Positions 1,212-63,994 of a DNA stretch of 64,000 bases are shown in pieces. Origin of the DNA: Candidatus Pacearchaeota archaeon. Its GTDB lineage: Archaea; Nanobdellota; Nanobdellia; Pacearchaeales; UBA284. Within the stretch, counting starts at the first letter, position 1; each line of letters begins with the position of its first letter. The stretch covers positions 113 to 64,112 of the forward strand of contig JAPLYB010000041.1 of assembly GCA_026395795.1 (NCBI GenBank). The letters are read 5' to 3'. The notes beneath the pieces were generated by a model. It had not been told where the DNA came from. It saw only the letters and a list, made by a program, of their open reading frames with translations, and made no database searches. Made by a program: the position numbers and the translations under genes.

Positions 1212-1345
1212 GTCAAAAAATTATTAATTTTTTAGACTCGTTGGGAGCATCTTTCTATTTACAGTAGAAACTATCTTCTATTGATAATATGCTCGAAAAT
1301 GAAAAGCATTTTCGGCATGCAGAAAAAGTTATCTTTTTCTAGCAG
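1212..1345. repeat. array of A-run/T-run hairpins with GCATGC junction (locus A)
   Basis: Successive inverted repeats: GTCAAAAAATTA/TAATTTTTTAGAC, TTTCTA/TAGAAA, CGAAAATG/CATTTTCG, then GCATGC, then AGAAAAAG-TTAT-CTTTTTCT. Confidence 0.6.
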
Positions 1346-59551: not shown

Positions 59552-60172
59552 ATGGAAATCTTAGTTTTTGGAGATAGTTTAACATATGGTGCATGGGATA
59601 AAGAAGGTGGCTGGGTTGCAAGACTAAGAAGGTTTATTGATGAGAAATATCCAGAACAACATTTTGTATATAATCTTGGAGTTCCTGGAGATACCTCAAA
59701 GCATCTAATTGAGAGGTTTGAACCAGAAGCTAAAATAAGAATTTTTGATAAAGATCCCATGGTTATTTTTCAGGTTGGAGCAAATGATTCTGCTATCCTT
59801 TCTTCAAAAAGAAATGCAGAGTGGATTTCTCCTAAAGATTTTGAAAGAAATATAAGAAGATTAATCTTTGAGGCAAGGAAGATCACAAACAAGATCTTCT
59901 TTGTTGGGCATGTTTTTGTGGATGAGAAGAAAACACGCCCTGTTTCTTGGGATAAAGATGTTAGCTATACTAATGAAAACATAAAGAAATATGGGGATAT
60001 AACCAAAGAGATTTGTTCCAAGGAAAATATTTCGTTTATCGATATCTTTCCTGATTTTAAGAAACAGGATTTCGGGCATTTACTGCAAGATGGAGTGCAT
60101 CCAACATCTGCTGGACATGAAGCTATTTTTAGGACTGTAAGAGACTTTCTTGTTAAAAATAAAGTAATCTAG
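59552..60172 (+). CDS. SGNH/GDSL hydrolase
   Basis: Block I ILVFGDSLTYG, block III GANDS and block V DGVHPTSAGH. Confidence 0.8.
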   Translation: MEILVFGDSLTYGAWDKEGGWVARLRRFIDEKYPEQHFVYNLGVPGDTSKHLIERFEPEAKIRIFDKDPMVIFQVGANDSAILSSKRNAEWISPKDFERNIRRLIFEARKITNKIFFVGHVFVDEKKTRPVSWDKDVSYTNENIKKYGDITKEICSKENISFIDIFPDFKKQDFGHLLQDGVHPTSAGHEAIFRTVRDFLVKNKVI

Positions 60173-60233
60173 AATTCTCTGATTTTCAAGGATATTTGAA
60201 TCTAGATTCAACTCCCATAAACTAAAAAGTGAG

Positions 60234-60312
60234 CGAGCCCGAGGGTGCTCAAAAATTAGGAAATTTTTGGCATCCCAAAAACTTGCGAGTTTTTTAGGAT
60301 ATTTGAACCCCC
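60234..60312. repeat. partial copy of the tRNA-Lys 3' portion, interrupted by two hairpin units
   Basis: CGAGCCCGAGGG (60234-45) and ATTTGAACCCCC (60301-12) are contiguous in the tRNA (60342-66). Here they are separated by ~55 nt made of two A-run/T-run hairpins. Confidence 0.5.
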
Positions 60313-60341
60313 ACAGGTTCAAACCCATCGGAAATTTCTTA

Positions 60342-60416
60342 CGAGCCCGAGGGGATTTGAACCCCCGACACCTAGCTTAAAAGGCTAGTACTCTAACCAG
60401 GCTGAGCTACGGGCTC
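60342..60416 (-). tRNA. tRNA-Lys(UUU)
   Basis: Minus strand: GAGCCCG-TA-GCTC-AGCCTGGTTA-GAGT-A-CTAGC-CTTTTAA-GCTAG-GTGTC-GGGGG-TTCAAAT-CCCCT-CGGGCTC-G. A complete cloverleaf of 75 nt with no intron and no encoded CCA. Confidence 0.9.
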
Positions 60417-60598
60417 ATGCTCAAAAACAATTGTTTTTGGCATGCCAAAAATGCAAAGCATTTTTCAGCACATGAAAACCAATGTTTTCAGGCGTCCTAA
60501 AAAACCTTCGTTTTTTGGGATGCAGAAAATCTTAAGATTTTCCAGCATGCAGAAAACATTTGCCTGTTTTCTAGCATACACTTAAACAAGATTACGAA
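60417..60598. repeat. array of six A-run/T-run hairpins with CATGC-type junctions (locus B)
   Basis: CAAAAACAATTGTTTTTG, AAAAATGC-aaa-GCATTTTT, GAAAAC-caat-GTTTTC, AAAAAAC-cttc-GTTTTTT, GAAAATCTTAAGATTTTC and AGAAAACA-tttgcc-TGTTTTCT. The junctions are catgc / agcacatg / aggcgtc / gatgc / agcatgc. Confidence 0.65.
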
Positions 60599-60630
60599 GC
60601 ATATTTAAATGTTATTTCTCTACGTTTTTT

Positions 60631-61455
60631 ATGGGTTGGAAAGAGGTGTTAAAAGTATTTATTGGAATTTTTTTGTTTGTATCCCTCCTAATTTTTGTGT
60701 TTAGTTTTTCTTTTTTTCAAATTACTTCTTATAACGTTCTAGAACCAAGATTTCACAGTCTTGTTCAACAAGGGATGACTGAACAACTCCAAAAGTTTAC
60801 TGCAGATGACTGGAATAAAGAAAAGGCAGGACTTATAAAAAATTGTACTGATAAAGAGCATGTTCACGTACCAACAATCGATAATTCAAACATAAAAGGT
60901 TTTGCTGGTTCAAATCTTCCAAAAGAAATTCAGATTAGTTGCATTAATATTTCGGATATAACAATAGGAGACCTCATGAGCATATCCTCTAAACAGATGT
61001 TTGATAGCATATACTATCAAAATTCCTCTTGTAACTTTTTACAATGTTTTTCTGATAAAAATAATTCTGAAAATGAACTTCTGCTTTTTGCTTCAAAAAA
61101 TGCGAATAATTTCTTTGCAGCCGTAAGTTTCATTTTAATTATAACTACATTATTTTTTATAGTTTTTATATTTCTTTTGAGCCAGCCAAAATACACCTCT
61201 TTTTACGAGTTTGCACCAGTCTTTATGGTTGCTGGGTTGCCATTCATACTCTTTGCTATTTTAAAGGCAAATGTTGTTAGCCTTTTTGGAAATTTTTCAA
61301 ATACTATCTTACCATTTATTAATTCATTTTTTATTAATTTTCTTGTTGTATTCTGTATAGGGGTTGTGTTTTTGATTCTTGCTATCATATTTGCAAGCAT
61401 ACATAAAGAAAGTAAGAAAAATGTTGAAGAAAGTGAAGAAAAAGTTAATAGATAA
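60631..61455 (+). CDS. membrane protein, hypothetical
   Basis: N-terminal TM, a Cys-containing ectodomain, three or four C-terminal TM helices and an acidic tail. Confidence 0.45.
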   Translation: MGWKEVLKVFIGIFLFVSLLIFVFSFSFFQITSYNVLEPRFHSLVQQGMTEQLQKFTADDWNKEKAGLIKNCTDKEHVHVPTIDNSNIKGFAGSNLPKEIQISCINISDITIGDLMSISSKQMFDSIYYQNSSCNFLQCFSDKNNSENELLLFASKNANNFFAAVSFILIITTLFFIVFIFLLSQPKYTSFYEFAPVFMVAGLPFILFAILKANVVSLFGNFSNTILPFINSFFINFLVVFCIGVVFLILAIIFASIHKESKKNVEESEEKVNR

Positions 61456-61539
61456 TAAGAAAGAGGGTTTTATTGATAATCAGAGACATTTCTTTGATAA
61501 GCTGATTAGTGATGCAGGATATTTTATAAATCGAATACC

Positions 61540-61689
61540 TTAAAGTTTTATTTTATGATCTTTGAGGTCTTTTGTATGCTGGTCCATGTCACCATTTCGT
61601 AAACAATCCCAACAAGTGTGTGTTGAGTGGTCTTTTTCATCTTTTACAATGCCTGTTCCGTGGCACTTTGGACAATTTTTGTTTGCCAT
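61540..61689 (-). CDS. possible 49-aa zinc-ribbon protein
   Basis: MANKNCPKCHGTGIVKDEKDHSTHTCWDCLRNGDMDQHTKDLKDHKIKL has CxxC...CxxC. Below the ORF-track cutoff; translated by hand. Confidence 0.4.
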   Translation of the reverse strand: MANKNCPKCHGTGIVKDEKDHSTHTCWDCLRNGDMDQHTKDLKDHKIKL

Positions 61690-61870
61690 TTTTACCTTTT
61701 TTATGATTTTATATGCTGTTTGTGTTTAAAAGGTTTGTTGTGTTAGATTGAATTGTTTTTATCCTTTAATTTAAACAAAAATCAGGGTTTCTTGAGCTTT
61801 CTTGATCCTAAGAGGACACCTTTCACAACCAACTTTTTTCTATTTTCCAAAAAAATGGCTTTGCTTGATA

Positions 61871-62593
61871 TTAGATAATAGACGTTAAGACTAATATCAT
61901 TATAATTGCAAGAGCCATTGCAATAATCACACCTTTTGAATTGTGTTCCATTGTCTCTGGAAGCAAAGTTGATGCTCCAATGTATAAAAACTCTCCCACG
62001 AAAATCGCTAGAAGAAGTGCTAGTGCAACTTGTGGAAGGACAATGATGTTTGTTAGAAGTATTCCAACAACAGGAGCAAGAGCATCTAAAAATAAGAATA
62101 AAGCAGCTTTCCTTGTTTTATGTTTATTCTTCAGCATTAATGTAACTGTATTTATCCCATCTGTGAAATCATGGAATATTACTGCAAAAGCCACAATTAT
62201 TCCTACACTTACATTAGCGTAGAATGCAGACCCTATTGCAACTCCATCCAAAAGGCTATGGATTATCAAACTTCCTGCTCCGACTGGCCCCATGATATGG
62301 CCATGTGTATCTTCCTTCTCTATATGGTGCGTGAGGAAGAAACGTTCTACTAAACTATAGAAGAAAAAAGAAGCAACAACTGCCAGCATGATATATTTTA
62401 TAGGAAAACCTATGTTTTGAGAAATTTGTAAGCTTTCAGGCAGTAAATCAAAGAATGAAACAGCTATCAAACTTCCTGCAGCAAATGCGAAGAAATAGGG
62501 AAGATATTTTTTAAATTTTATAATGACCAGCCCACCACATATTGTTGAAACAAACGTTGCTAATGCAAATATAATCACAAGGTCGTTCATCAA
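61871..62593 (-). CDS. ZIP-family metal (zinc) transporter, ZupT-like
   Basis: Eight-TM pattern with HSLLDGVAIG and HDFTDGI metal-binding motifs. Confidence 0.8.
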   Translation of the reverse strand: MMNDLVIIFALATFVSTICGGLVIIKFKKYLPYFFAFAAGSLIAVSFFDLLPESLQISQNIGFPIKYIMLAVVASFFFYSLVERFFLTHHIEKEDTHGHIMGPVGAGSLIIHSLLDGVAIGSAFYANVSVGIIVAFAVIFHDFTDGINTVTLMLKNKHKTRKAALFLFLDALAPVVGILLTNIIVLPQVALALLLAIFVGEFLYIGASTLLPETMEHNSKGVIIAMALAIIMILVLTSII

Positions 62594-62651
62594 AAAGTCT
62601 ATTAATTAATGTTTAAGTATTTTACTATAGTCAACGAATTAGATATTTCCT

Positions 62652-62882
62652 CATGCTAAAAAATCCCTTGAATTTTTGGCATGCTCAGAAACAAAAGTTT
62701 CTAGCACCCCAAAAAGCAAAGCTTTTTTAGGGTCACAAAAATGTGTTTATACATTTTTTATGATTTTGTCGTTGAGTATGCTTCAAAACATCTTGGTTTT
62801 GGGCACGCTAGGAAATCCGGGATTTCCTGCGTCCCAAAAAACTTCTGTTTTTTTAGGACGCCAAAAATCTGAAAGATTTTTG
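62652..62882. repeat. array of ~9 A-run/T-run hairpins with CATGC/CACGC junctions (locus C)
   Basis: Examples: TAAAAAATCccttGAATTTTTGG, CAGAAACaaaaGTTTCTAG, CCCAAAAAGCaaaGCTTTTTTAGGG, ACAAAAATGTgtttatACATTTTTTAT, TAGGAAATCCGGGATTTCCT, CCAAAAAACttctGTTTTTTTAGG, CCAAAAATCTgaaAGATTTTTG. Confidence 0.65.
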
Positions 62883-62935
62883 AACGTTTAGGGAAAGACT
62901 TATGTCTTTCACTATAGAGAAAAGGATTATGACAG

Positions 62936-63994
62936 CTAATCTACACAGACTCCAATCTTTCCAAACTCTTCATTTATCTCATTAATAATCTCCTTTTCAT
63001 TCCCATTTAAATTTTTAACTCTTTTTTGTTCTTGTGATTTTTCTTTCTTTAGACTATCAATTTCGAGAATTATGCTTGATGATTCAGAATATAATCTTTG
63101 CATTATCTGCCCATCTTTCTCATTTTGGATTTTGTTTTTCAATATCTCTTCTTTTTTGTTATTAATATTCTTTATAGCATCAGAAATCCTTTCAGTAGCT
63201 AATTGAGCTTCTTTTAACAAATCCCAAATTTCTTTTCCATCATCTTGTTGAAAATTTTTCTGAAAATTTTCTTTATATAGATTTACTATTTTCATTTTAT
63301 TCTCAAAAATATGAAAAAAAGCTCCAAGGGTTTTAAAATCAATAAGTTGCCTTAGGAGCTGAACATCTTTTTCTAAGTCTATTTCAAGAGATTTAACCTT
63401 CTCTAATCTTTTTAGATATTCTGAATATTCTGGATTTTTCTTGATTCTTTCAATTTCTTCAAGAATTTTTTTGCTGTGTTCTTCTTTAAAAATTATTTTT
63501 TGATCTATAGACGTGATAGATTGGTTAGTCTTATCAGTTTCTTCTTTAATTTTCTTAAATTGCTTAAGTTCTGATTCAATAAAATAGATTGTTTCAAAAG
63601 AAGTAGTAATCTCTTTGTTTTCCTTAAATAAAGTTATTAGTTCTTTGGAAAAGAGTGTTAATTCATTTTTTATGTCTTCCATTTCTTTTCCAATTAGAAT
63701 TGTAGTTCTTTCATAACTCAAATGTGAACTTCTGTTAAAGACTAAAAAGAGTGTGTCTATATTAAAAATAATTTTTTCAAGTTTATTCTCCTTCAAATTA
63801 TCTAAATTATTGATAAAAGATTCAATCAGATCAATATATTCCTTTCTTGCTTCTTTCACAACATATTTGAGTCTATCTTCAACTTTTTTTGATTCAACAT
63901 CAACCTTTCTTAGAATGTCTATTTTTTCCTTGATTCTGATGGTAAGAATGCGAATTCTATCTTTGATTAAAGCTAGTATTTCTTTTTCCCTCAT
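62936..63994 (-). CDS. coiled-coil protein, hypothetical
   Basis: 352-aa Glu/Lys/Ile-rich heptad-like sequence. No catalytic motif. Confidence 0.5.
   Translation of the reverse strand: MREKEILALIKDRIRILTIRIKEKIDILRKVDVESKKVEDRLKYVVKEARKEYIDLIESFINNLDNLKENKLEKIIFNIDTLFLVFNRSSHLSYERTTILIGKEMEDIKNELTLFSKELITLFKENKEITTSFETIYFIESELKQFKKIKEETDKTNQSITSIDQKIIFKEEHSKKILEEIERIKKNPEYSEYLKRLEKVKSLEIDLEKDVQLLRQLIDFKTLGAFFHIFENKMKIVNLYKENFQKNFQQDDGKEIWDLLKEAQLATERISDAIKNINNKKEEILKNKIQNEKDGQIMQRLYSESSSIILEIDSLKKEKSQEQKRVKNLNGNEKEIINEINEEFGKIGVCVD

What the first reader, a model, noticed from the sequence alone, without database searches (positions are those of the whole stretch)
60417..60598. Arrays of sequence-diverse A-run/T-run hairpins joined by CATGC motifs at three intergenic loci
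At 1212-1345, at 60247-60300 plus 60417-60598 (both sides of tRNA-Lys) and at 62652-62882, the DNA consists of back-to-back short hairpins.

- Each hairpin is 15-26 nt.
- Each stem begins with (C/T/G)(C/A)AAAA(A) and ends with the complementary T-run. The inner stem base pairs and the 3-6-nt loop differ from unit to unit.
- Units are joined by short GC-containing linkers, most often (G/A/T)CATGC, which is itself palindromic. I count at least six CATGC junctions.
- So the structure and the junctions are conserved while the sequence is not. This is unlike CRISPR repeats, typical MITEs or simple terminators.
- The arrays are strand-symmetric. They generate spurious ORFs (60080-60328, 62676-62891).
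- One array abuts position -1 of tRNA-Lys.

Possible roles are REP/BIME-like extragenic palindromes, protein-binding arrays, RNA stability or termination elements, or a small insertion-prone element.
Basis: seen in the sequence. Interest (0 to 1): 0.6.

Follow-up and report, generated by a model that had tools for sequence, protein, structure and literature searches.

The report
Mobile two-hairpin DNA repeats, DPANN archaeon
The back-to-back hairpins are copies of a tiny (about 55-base) two-hairpin DNA element that sits at about 90 places in the genome of a small DPANN archaeon and builds arrays by landing inside or beside earlier copies; it behaves like the REP/BIME or mini-transposon repeats of bacteria, but no enzyme that moves it was found.

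Summary
The hairpins belong to one genome-wide family: 89 loci, 203 hairpins, about 5.8 kb. The basic unit is not the single hairpin but a two-fold symmetric doublet of about 55 nt: ATGC-T-[A-run stem, loop, T-run stem]-GCATGC-[A-run stem, loop, T-run stem]-A-GCAT. The "CATGC linkers" are the GC clamps at the base of the stems, and they covary like the rest of the stem.

Doublets are discrete insertion units, shown by:
- filled and empty paralogous sites;
- contigs of related strains that lack single doublets or the whole six-hairpin array;
- a gain at an orthologous site in a relative;
- one in-frame copy inside a gene;
- a patchy spread among relatives, with none in one genome of the same genus.

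Arrays arise by nested or adjacent insertion: 41 doublets have PM polarity, none MP, and larger arrays read PPMM.

The doublets are not terminator-like in position and not strand-specific. Junctions carry 0-4 nt of microhomology and no fixed target duplication. Y1 (IS200/RAYT-type) transposases do not track the family.

Seven tRNA genes carry a downstream copy of their 3' end split in the T-loop by a doublet; this is unexplained. Earlier notes of this scan describe comparable hairpin elements in other DPANN genomes. Verdict: a new variant of a known kind, mechanism open.

The parts
1289..1345 (.). One hairpin doublet (atgct-CGAAAATG..CATTTTCG-gcatgc-AGAAAAAG..CTTTTTCT-agca)
   Evidence: second-best hit of covariance model R1 (C31:1398-1460). 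Its first 40 nt are identical to a doublet at G000:C4:27232.
1215..1233 (.). Single A-run/T-run hairpin (gtc-AAAAAATT att AATTTTTT-agac); family membership uncertain
   Evidence: stem 8, loop 3; it has no partner hairpin.
60234..60245 (-). First piece of a partial copy of the tRNA-Lys 3' end (acceptor 3' strand plus part of the T-stem)
   Evidence: CGAGCCCGAGGG recurs at 60343-60354 inside the tRNA.
60246..60299 (.). Hairpin doublet that splits the tRNA 3'-end copy in its T-loop
   Evidence: R1 hit C31:60354-60415, E about 1e-10 on both strands.
60301..60326 (-). Second piece of the tRNA 3'-end copy (T-loop and T-stem, 60301-60312), followed by an inverted copy of the T-loop region (60316-60326)
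   Evidence: The same layout occurs at six other tRNAs of the genome, at tRNA-Lys of G003 and at tRNA-Arg of G024.
60341..60417 (-). tRNA-Lys(UUU) gene
   Evidence: ARAGORN; Rfam RF00005, 67.7 bits.
60418..60577 (.). Six-hairpin array (three doublets, one nested) between tRNA-Lys and its ancestral promoter
   Evidence: A contig of run X2 replaces 60420-60594 with 13 nt. The relative L079 has 18 nt here.
60596..60612 (.). aagcatatttaaatg: shared TATA-like promoter region of tRNA-Lys (-) and the ORF at 60631 (+). The array has pushed it about 185 nt away from the tRNA.
   Evidence: Conserved in L078 and L079, and next to the tRNA in L079 and in the X2 variant. Promoter function is inferred, not shown.
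62627..62917 (.). About 75-bp TIR-bearing MITE (ctatagt...actatag) swollen by hairpin insertions
   Evidence: Alignment with paralogues in C17, C39, C35 and C29. A contig of run X3 skips 62627-62917 exactly.
62653..62764 (.). Host doublet inserted in the loop of the MITE hairpin (62653-62681 plus 62733-62764). It is present in the C17 and C39 copies and absent from the C35 and C29 copies.
62682..62732 (.). 51-nt doublet nested in the central linker of the host doublet
   Evidence: Absent from the C17 and C39 paralogues. Skipped by contigs of X1, X3 and X4, with 1 nt of ambiguity.
62779..62886 (.). 108-nt four-hairpin block (PPMM), that is, a doublet with a second doublet (62805-62857) nested in its linker
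   Evidence: Absent from all four paralogues. An X4 contig skips it. X2 and X3 contigs lack only 62805-62857, which is flanked by ACGC on both sides. Polarity. The inner doublet (hairpins 2-3) is 98% identical to C38:16183 and most of the second pair is 97.6% identical to C38:16156, while the first hairpin differs in its interior.

Best explanation
The arrays are accumulations of one family of miniature, gene-less, structure-defined mobile DNA elements.

**The unit.** It is a two-fold symmetric doublet of about 51-58 bp made of two hairpins. Each hairpin has:
- a 3-5 bp GC-containing clamp (ATGC/GCAT, ACGC/GCGT, ACAC/GTGT, CCC/GGG ...);
- an A-tract/T-tract stem;
- 1-4 variable apical pairs;
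- a loop of 3-6 nt.

The left hairpin has a one-base bulge (mostly T) on its outer 5' side. The right hairpin has a one-base bulge (mostly A) on its outer 3' side. The element therefore reads the same on both strands.

**How arrays form.** Copies insert into non-coding DNA, rarely in frame into genes. They prefer single-stranded-prone places: the central linker or a loop of an earlier copy, the loop of a MITE hairpin, and T-loop copies beside tRNA genes. Repeated insertion gives nested (PPMM) and adjacent (PMPM) arrays. GCATGC is simply where two clamps overlap.

**What is shown.** The family, its structure and covariation, discrete presence or absence at paralogous, orthologous and strain level, nesting, and the lack of a link to Y1 transposases.

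**What is inferred.**
- The direction of change (insertion rather than deletion) at most sites.
- The route. I think a single-strand/hairpin-dependent route is most likely: either an unidentified hairpin-recognising recombinase or nuclease, or replication template switching at hairpins. Junctions show 0-4 nt of microhomology and no fixed target duplication.
- Perfect stems may be kept partly by palindrome self-correction and not only by selection.
- Effects on the host (leaky T-run termination, RNA 3' or 5' structures) would be by-products.
For: **Family and structure**
- 81 doublets plus 15 larger arrays. After filtering: 89 loci, 203 hairpins.
- 30-copy alignment A1: 87% of cells paired, against 73% when shuffled and 30-53% when slid. 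102 cells changed on both sides, against 36 when shuffled. The clamp pairs covary as well.
- Model R1 scores both strands equally.
- Polarity is PM in 41 doublets and MP in none. Larger arrays read PPMM, PPM?, ?PMM.

**Mobility**
- Five paralogous copies of a 75-bp MITE carry zero (C35, C29), one (C17, C39) or several (window) insertions with clean junctions.
- Contigs from other samples lack 62682-62732, 62805-62857, 62779-62886 and the whole array 60420-60594.
- The orthologous locus in L079 has no array at tRNA-Lys, but has a doublet at a site that is empty in the window (about 61703-61712) and in L078.
- Identical or 98% identical doublets and composites lie at unrelated loci. One example is a doublet nested in a hairpin loop and copied as a unit (C35, C5 and C15).
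- A 57-nt in-frame copy sits in a CooS/Prismane-like gene. Orthologues in G002, G003 and G005 lack the 19 residues.

**Distribution among relatives**
- R1 hits (both strands counted): G001 122, G003 51, G005 51, G004 19, G002 0 (same genus), three genomes of genus g6 23-36. Few or none elsewhere in the order.
- Matches in 2 of 150 other genomes of the class.
Against: - No mobilising enzyme was identified.
  - Y1_Tnp genes in G000 have their own, different end hairpins. They do not co-occur with the family.
  - No IS110 and no serine recombinase over the cut-off.
  - Long tyrosine integrases correlate only loosely.
  - No gene is consistently flanked by doublets.
- There is no fixed target-site duplication and no target consensus.
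- Microhomology at junctions (for example ACGC) fits slippage deletion as well as insertion, so some polymorphisms may be losses.
- The strain evidence rests on short assembled contigs. Some of them could come from the paralogous MITE copies.
- The near-perfect pairing could instead reflect selection for a host function that I could not test, since no RNA data were available.
Confidence: 0.75

Rival explanations
1. Selected bidirectional transcription terminators or mRNA-end stabilisers. Each A-run/hairpin/T-run unit would stop archaeal RNA polymerase at its T-run, or protect RNA ends, in both directions. Arrays would be reinforced terminators kept by selection in place.
For: The A-first polarity puts a T-run at the 3' side of the hairpin on both strands. 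Copies lie almost only outside genes. Many lie shortly after stop codons. Oligo-T termination in archaea is established knowledge.
Against: - Convergent intergenic regions are the least occupied: 4.9%, against 8.4% for tandem and 12.1% for divergent.
- Arrays abut the 5' end of tRNA-Lys(UUU), tRNA-Lys(CUU) and tRNA-Glu, between promoter and gene. There a good terminator would silence a probably single-copy tRNA.
- G002 of the same genus has none, and most of the order has none.
- Presence varies between strains.
- One copy lies in frame inside a gene.
Confidence: 0.1
2. Binding-site arrays for a dimeric DNA-binding protein. The conserved dyad T-run-G-GCATGC-C-A-run, centred on each linker, would be the real site. 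It could be a recombinase core like dif or loxP, or a chromatin protein site. The hairpin interiors would be spacers.
For: The linker-centred palindrome has the layout of a tyrosine-recombinase core: inverted arms around a 6-bp centre. Insertions land in linkers with short shared cores. The joined ends of an element (AGCA+TGCT) recreate a linker-like site (own reading). XerA and three long integrases are encoded.
Against: The interiors are base-paired well beyond the A/T tracts and they covary, which a spacer would not need. Double-stranded circles of 51-58 bp are physically implausible (own knowledge). Integrase counts do not track doublet counts: G002 has one integrase and no doublets, while G003, G010 and G020 have doublets and no long integrase was found.
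Confidence: 0.08
3. A family of structured non-coding RNA genes or RNA-level regulatory elements, kept by selection on RNA folding.
For: Strong covariation and stable predicted folds.
Against: Both strands score equally in the covariance model. The bulge asymmetry is mirrored, so neither strand is preferred. There is no Rfam match. The units occur in every transcriptional context, nested in one another and in a MITE, and vary between strains. Palindrome self-correction by template switching can keep stems perfect without selection (own knowledge).
Confidence: 0.04
4. Chance hairpins of AT-rich intergenic DNA.
For: The genome has 33% G+C, and many short A/T hairpins arise by chance: about 2,400 perfect hairpins in simulated genomes.
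Against: All controls reject it: descriptor hits 178 against 53-60, arrays of at least 4 hairpins 12 against 0, A-first against T-first 300 to 128 in intergenic DNA, conserved covarying clamps, and 41 PM against 0 MP.
Confidence: 0.01

Closest known systems
REP / BIME elements and REPIN doublets of Proteobacteria (REPINs are moved by RAYT, a Y1 HUH transposase; PMC3116915, PMC3733652)
   Same: Short extragenic imperfect palindromes in high copy. The replicating unit is an inverted pair of asymmetric hairpins (as in a REPIN). Arrays of hairpins have short linkers (as in BIMEs). Distribution is lineage-restricted.
   Different: No GTAG or CGTC head. The hairpin interiors are far more diverse. 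The two hairpins do not pair with each other. There is no RAYT: the Y1 genes here have other hairpins and do not co-occur. The host is an archaeon.
IS200/IS605-derived hairpin MITEs (PATEs of Haloquadratum; the IS608 and ISDra2 paradigm, PMC6006769)
   Same: A hairpin near each end, no target duplication, no long TIR, and a likely single-strand route.
   Different: The hairpins reach to within 0-5 nt of the ends, which leaves no room for guide and cleavage sites. There is no conserved tetranucleotide 5' of the insertions. The resident TnpA elements carry unrelated hairpins. The family is abundant in G001, where no Y1_Tnp was found.
MJRE1-3 palindromic repetitive elements of Methanocaldococcus jannaschii (Suyama, Lathe and Bork 2005, cited in PMC2229807; not read here)
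   Same: Archaeal, short, palindromic, intergenic, and also fused in frame into protein genes. The mover is unknown.
   Different: A different sequence family and host lineage. Homology was not tested. Nesting, polarity and the tRNA T-loop modules were not, to my knowledge, described there.
Rickettsia palindromic elements (RPE; PMC2229807)
   Same: Palindromic repeats that survive in frame inside conserved genes, as here in a CooS-like gene.
   Different: RPEs are 105-146 bp single long stem-loops with coding potential. Here there is one intragenic copy among about 90, and the elements are 51-58 bp two-hairpin units.
Mitochondrial palindromic GC clusters (yeast GC42, PMC4478555) and double-hairpin elements of Allomyces mtDNA (Paquin et al. 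2000, cited there; own knowledge)
   Same: Tiny hairpin or double-hairpin mobile units in AT-rich genomes. They merge and shuffle into composites, vary between strains, change mainly in the loops, and have an unknown enzyme.
   Different: They are organellar. GC42 carries a 2-3 nt target duplication (AG or ACT). Here there is no fixed duplication and the stems are A/T-tract stems with GC clamps.
Integron attC sites and Xer-exploiting elements (IMEX such as CTX phage); own knowledge
   Same: Structure conserved while sequence is free. Extrahelical bases give a folded strand its polarity. Recombination as folded single strands would need no target duplication.
   Different: No IntI-type integrase or cassette ORFs. 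The conserved R-box motifs are absent. No experiment or co-occurrence links XerA or the integrases to the doublets.

Membership tests
REP/REPIN-RAYT | Short extragenic imperfect palindromes in many copies, often as inverted pairs | tested here: met
   89 loci, 203 hairpins, PM-polar inverted pairs.
REP/REPIN-RAYT | Conserved GTAG or CGTC tetranucleotide at the 5' foot of the hairpin | tested here: not met
   The consensus foot is ATGC-T / A-GCAT with covarying variants. There is no GTAG or CGTC.
REP/REPIN-RAYT | A single-copy RAYT (Y1 HUH) gene flanked by the repeats and co-distributed with them | tested here: not met
   The three Y1_Tnp genes are flanked by other hairpins. Presence of Y1_Tnp does not follow the doublets in 40 relatives. 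Genes flanked by doublets are an AAA_14/DUF4143 ATPase, a CBS-domain protein, a protein with no Pfam family and a CooS/Prismane-like protein.
IS200/IS605-derived MITE (PATE) | End hairpins matching those of a resident TnpA element | tested here: not met
   The TnpA elements end in TTGCCC-tgat-GGGCAA, GCAAAAAG and CAATGAGCT...AGCTCATTG hairpins.
IS200/IS605-derived MITE (PATE) | Insertion 3' of a fixed tetra- or pentanucleotide, without target duplication | tested here: inconclusive
   No target duplication: met. The 5' flanks differ (GGCA, AGTA, AAAT, TTAT, TTCA, GTTC ...). Four of five non-tRNA junctions can be read as insertion between A and T. Only about 12 junctions were resolved.
Classical MITE (DDE transposase-derived) | Terminal inverted repeats plus a target-site duplication of fixed length | tested here: not met
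   The ends ATGCT...AGCAT are inverted, but the junction overlap is 0, 1, 1, 2, 2 or 4 nt. By contrast, the 75-bp ctatagt element in the same region looks like a classical MITE.
Intrinsic or archaeal oligo-T terminators | Placed downstream of genes: enriched in convergent and tandem regions, avoided between promoter and gene | tested here: not met
   Divergent 12.1%, tandem 8.4%, convergent 4.9%. Arrays lie at positions -1 to -3 of three tRNAs. The gene calls are crude (ORF-based).
Intrinsic or archaeal oligo-T terminators | Actual 3' ends of transcripts at the T-run | not testable with these tools
   The one run search (kind 'any') listed only DNA runs; no RNA-specific search was made.
Integron attC / Xer-dependent folded-strand elements | A dedicated or host tyrosine recombinase that recombines the folded hairpin | tested here: inconclusive
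   XerA and three long integrases are present. Counts across relatives do not separate doublet-rich genomes from doublet-free ones.
Structured RNA family (Rfam-type) | Strand-specific conservation and a match to a described family | tested here: not met
   No Rfam hit other than the tRNA. Both strands score equally with R1.

The most novel reading that the evidence does not exclude
The doublets may be the cargo-less form of an undescribed archaeal insertion system that acts on folded single strands. A host or integrase-type recombinase, or a replication-coupled template-switch process, would recognise hairpin loops, including the T-loops of tRNA genes. It would insert two-hairpin units without a target duplication, and at tRNA genes it would write a direct plus an inverted copy of the target. 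This would be a common mechanism behind the hairpin mini-elements, tRNA-end duplications and in-frame gene insertions now noted in several DPANN genomes and in M. jannaschii.
Probability: 0.2. Interest if true: 0.8.

Novelty: new variant of a known kind. Interest (0 to 1): 0.55.

Why it matters
DPANN archaea have tiny, streamlined genomes. Even so, this one carries about 90 loci of a selfish-looking repeat that changes between strains. The repeat:
- moves promoters away from tRNA genes;
- breaks assemblies at tRNA genes;
- creates false ORFs;
- has added 19 residues to an enzyme.

For annotation, masking the family with the covariance model removes spurious genes. For biology, the family offers dated, clean insertion events (filled and empty sites, nesting order) from which the rules of an unknown archaeal insertion process can be read. 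This may be the same process that duplicates tRNA 3' ends. It also shows that "compensatory" covariation can occur in mobile palindromes, which is a caveat for RNA-gene discovery in such genomes.

Tried and rejected
- **IS200/IS605 or RAYT partner.** Y1_Tnp was found three times in G000, but with unrelated end hairpins, and its distribution in 40 relatives does not match. TnpB was found once over the cut-off.
- **IS110 and serine recombinase.** Not found over the cut-off.
- **Tyrosine recombinases.** Present; two of the long integrases lie beside tRNA genes. There is no clean co-occurrence.
- **A RAYT-like gene flanked by doublets.** The four best-flanked genes are an AAA_14/DUF4143 ATPase, a protein with no Pfam family, a CooS/Prismane-like protein and a CBS-domain protein.
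- **Terminator reading.** Positional test negative.
- **Rfam.** tRNA only.
- **Orthologous comparison inside the genus at DNA level.** The genomes are too diverged (GDSL protein 41-70% identical). I used synteny and metagenome contigs instead.
- **Literature**. No description of such elements in DPANN archaea was found in the library. The nearest are MJRE, REP/REPIN, RPE and mitochondrial GC clusters.
- **RNA evidence.** The single run search (kind 'any') listed only DNA runs; no RNA-specific search was made.
- **Origin of the tRNA modules.** I could not decide between an integrase scar with a later doublet insertion and a multi-step template switch.

Full report
**Setting.** The window is contig C31 (113-64112) of a 957-kb, 44-contig, 33% G+C genome. 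The genome encodes TBP, so it is archaeal. Earlier notes of this scan call it a Pacearchaeota-type DPANN archaeon; I did not check that name independently. The region holds tRNA-Lys(UUU) at 60341-60417 on the minus strand. It lies between a GDSL-lipase-like gene and a membrane-protein ORF. Further on there is a ZIP-transporter gene.

- A strict A-run / inner stem / T-run descriptor finds 178 sites in the genome, against 53-60 in three Markov-3 simulated genomes.
- Runs of at least three back-to-back perfect hairpins number 29 against 4. Runs of at least four number 12 against 0.
- A hairpin whose 5' arm holds the A-run keeps that property on the other strand, so A-first against T-first is a control that does not depend on composition or strand. 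In intergenic DNA the counts are 300 against 128. In coding DNA they are 583 against 526.
- The six-hairpin array folds with z = -8.1 as DNA and -7.0 as RNA of the opposite strand.

**What the unit is.** Array sizes are dominated by two: 81 doublets, against 6, 6, 1 and 2 arrays of three to six hairpins. The list of doublets and a 30-copy alignment give this consensus:

nnnATGCT-n-AAAAAT..loop..ATTTTn-GGCATGCC-n-AAAAT..loop..ATTTTC-n-AGCATAnn

- The "CATGC linker" is where the 3' clamp of hairpin 1 (GCAT) overlaps the 5' clamp of hairpin 2 (ATGC).
- The clamps covary: ATGC/GCAT, ACGC/GCGT, ACAC/GTGT, ATCA/TGAT, CCC/GGG.
- On the stated structure 87.3% of cells pair, against 73.4% when shuffled and 30-53% when the partners are slid. 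102 cells are changed on both sides, against 36 when shuffled.
- Stems are 6-9 bp and loops mostly 3-4 nt. The 221 monomers have 208 distinct cores.
- Each doublet is polar and two-fold symmetric. The left hairpin has a one-base bulge on its 5' side (T in 41 cases). The right hairpin has one on its 3' side (A in 49 cases). There are 41 clear PM doublets and no MP doublet.
- A covariance model of the doublet (R1) scores both strands of each locus about equally.
- After a clamp filter I count 89 arrays with 203 hairpins, about 5.8 kb.
- Overlaps with my crude ORF calls are almost all at ORF starts or with short ORFs created by the arrays themselves.

**Evidence that doublets are insertion units.**
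1. *Paralogous sites.* A 75-bp element with inverted ends (ctatagt...actatag) occurs five times. The copies in C35 and C29 are uninterrupted. Those in C17 and C39 carry one 58-nt doublet in the loop of the element's own hairpin. The window copy (62627-62917) carries that doublet, a 51-nt doublet nested in its linker (62682-62732), and a 108-nt four-hairpin block (62779-62886).
2. *Strains.* I laid assembled contigs of four metagenome runs on 59600-63400.
   - Some forms skip 62682-62732 (X1, X3, X4), 62779-62886 (X4) and the whole MITE (X3).
   - X2 and X3 lack only 62805-62857. That is the inner pair of the PPMM block, flanked by ACGC on both sides.
   - In X2 the array 60420-60594 is replaced by 13 nt.
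   - Some of these short contigs could stem from the paralogues. The tRNA-side variant cannot, although its shorter side is only 23 nt.
3. *Orthologues.* In contig L079, where the neighbouring protein is 54% identical, tRNA-Lys lies 18 nt from the shared aagcatatttaaatg box. It has no array and no 3' module. L079 does carry a doublet at a site that is empty in the window (about 61703-61712) and in L078. G002, G004 and G005 also lack the array at tRNA-Lys.
4. *Recent copying.* Doublets that are 98-100% identical lie at unrelated loci. A composite, in which a doublet is nested in the apical loop of another doublet's hairpin, is 100% identical over about 120 nt between C35 and C5, and a diverged copy lies in C15.
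5. *A coding insertion.* A 57-nt copy lies in frame in a CooS/Prismane-like gene. Orthologues in G002, G003 and G005 (70-72% identical) lack exactly these 19 residues.
Three genomes of genus g6 have 23-36. There are few or none elsewhere in the order. Only 2 of 150 other genomes sampled from the class have any.

**How arrays grow.** The polarity strings of larger arrays (PPMM, PPM?, ?PMM, PM?xMM) are those expected if a PM unit lands in the linker of, or next to, an earlier PM unit. The strain variants confirm this for two cases. The resolved targets are the central linker of a doublet, the apical loop of a doublet hairpin, the loop of the MITE hairpin, and the T-loop of tRNA 3'-end copies. 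These are mostly places that are single-stranded when hairpins extrude. Junctions share 0, 1, 1, 2, 2 or 4 nt between element end and target. There is no fixed duplication and no common target word, although four of five non-tRNA junctions can be read as insertion between A and T.

**What it is not.**
- *Not terminator-like in placement.* 12.1% of divergent, 8.4% of tandem and 4.9% of convergent intergenic regions hold an array (crude gene calls).
- *Between promoter and gene.* Arrays abut the 5' ends of tRNA-Lys(UUU), tRNA-Lys(CUU) and tRNA-Glu. At tRNA-Lys(UUU) the ancestral TATA-like box now lies about 185 nt upstream. Either the six hairpins are read through or a new promoter arose.
- *Not a described RNA family, and not strand-specific*.
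- *Not a PATE or REP system.* The three Y1_Tnp genes carry other end hairpins. Y1_Tnp was not found in G001, G005, G010 and G017, which are rich in doublets, and is present in G027 and G030, which have none.
- *Other candidate movers.* IS110 and serine recombinases were not found over the cut-off. XerA-like genes are nearly universal. Long integrases (three in G000, two of them beside tRNA-Glu and tRNA-Asp) correlate only loosely.

**The tRNA modules (unexplained).** Seven tRNA genes of G000 share one layout: Lys-UUU, Lys-CUU, Ala-GGC, Ile-GAU, Ser-GCU, Pro-CGG and an intron-bearing tRNA on C23. In the sense direction the order is:
1. an 11-41 nt trailer;
2. an inverted copy of the T-loop region;
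3. the 5' part of the T-arm;
4. a doublet;
5. the rest of the T-arm plus the acceptor 3' strand, ending within about 2 nt of the tRNA end.

The break lies at T-loop positions 56-61, and the doublet occurs in either orientation. The same layout occurs at tRNA-Lys of G003, with a decayed doublet, and at tRNA-Arg(UCU) of G024. In G036 the insert is a different one of about 70 nt. G002 and G004 keep only an inverted T-loop piece right behind tRNA-Lys.

The duplication always ends at the tRNA end, which recalls integrase att scars. The inverted copy and the microhomologies recall multi-step template switching. I cannot decide between the two. Notes of this scan on other DPANN genomes and on M. jannaschii describe the same sense/antisense/sense pattern. 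They are leads, not evidence.

**Comparison with known systems.**
- In behaviour the family is closest to REP/BIME/REPIN elements: inverted pairs of asymmetric hairpins, and arrays.
- It is also close to mitochondrial GC clusters and double-hairpin elements: tiny hairpin units that merge, shuffle and vary between strains (PMC4478555).
- Among archaea the nearest published case is MJRE1-3 of M. jannaschii, which also enter genes in frame (cited in PMC2229807).
- It fails the defining tests of REP-RAYT, PATE and classical MITE families (see the membership table).
- A review of prokaryotic MITEs lists archaeal cases only from Sulfolobus, Halobacterium, Haloquadratum, Desulfurococcus and a few others (PMC10969869). 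My searches found nothing on DPANN archaea.

**Verdict.** The feature is real. It is best read as a lineage-restricted family of mobile two-hairpin mini-elements whose nested insertions make the arrays. The mover and route are unknown. It is a new variant of a known kind. Similar families have been noted before by this scan on other DPANN DNA.

Noticed in passing
window 60234-60340; also G000:C34:54464-54570, C35:6740-6858, C38:324-440, C44:7830-7942, C43:20190-20296, C23:49600-49730: Seven tRNA genes are followed by an inverted T-loop piece and a direct copy of their last 20-25 nt. The copy is split in the T-loop (positions 56-61) by a hairpin doublet. The same layout occurs at tRNA-Lys of G003 and tRNA-Arg of G024. 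In G036 the insert is a different one.
   Followed up: partly
G000:C39:13035-13096 (locus L082:1536-1597): A 57-nt hairpin doublet lies in frame inside a CooS/Prismane-like gene and adds 19 residues. Orthologues in G002, G003 and G005 lack them.
   Followed up: yes
window 62627-62917; G000:C17:10690-10830, C39:1830-1970, C35:37040-37120, C29:24850-24925: A 75-bp MITE-like element with inverted ends ctatagt...actatag occurs in five copies. A contig of run X3 shows the window site empty.
   Followed up: partly
window 60341-60417 compared with L031, L074, L075, L076: The orientation of tRNA-Lys(UUU) relative to the neighbouring GDSL-lipase gene flips among genomes of the genus. In G001 and G003 the gene carries an intron of about 50-66 nt near position 41-43. 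Several assemblies break at this tRNA.
   Followed up: no
G000:C3:14193-14546, C23:23483-23836, C43:1678-1938: Three IS200/IS605-type TnpA (Y1) genes share end hairpins (TTGCCC-tgat-GGGCAA plus GCAAAAAG; CAATGAGCT..AGCTCATTG) that are unrelated to the doublets. One TnpB-like gene lies at C41:2849-3046.
   Followed up: partly
G000:C15:21447-21932 and C39:14614-15075: Long (375-400 aa) tyrosine integrase genes lie directly downstream of tRNA-Glu and tRNA-Asp. They probably mark integrated elements. A third lies at C15:30291.
   Followed up: no
window 1240-1288 and G000:C4:27287-27323: A further short repeat (gagcatctttctatt..atagaaactat..tctattga) with its own TTTCTATT/AATAGAAA hairpin lies beside doublets at both loci. 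C4:27164-27230 also has two tandem AAAGTGATACA hairpins.
   Followed up: no
window 61562-61690 (-): A small cysteine-rich ORF (zinc-ribbon-like, about 45 aa) is conserved in L078 and L079 next to the 60631 ORF. The 55-aa ORF that the ORF list gives for this stretch lies on the opposite (+) strand.
   Followed up: no
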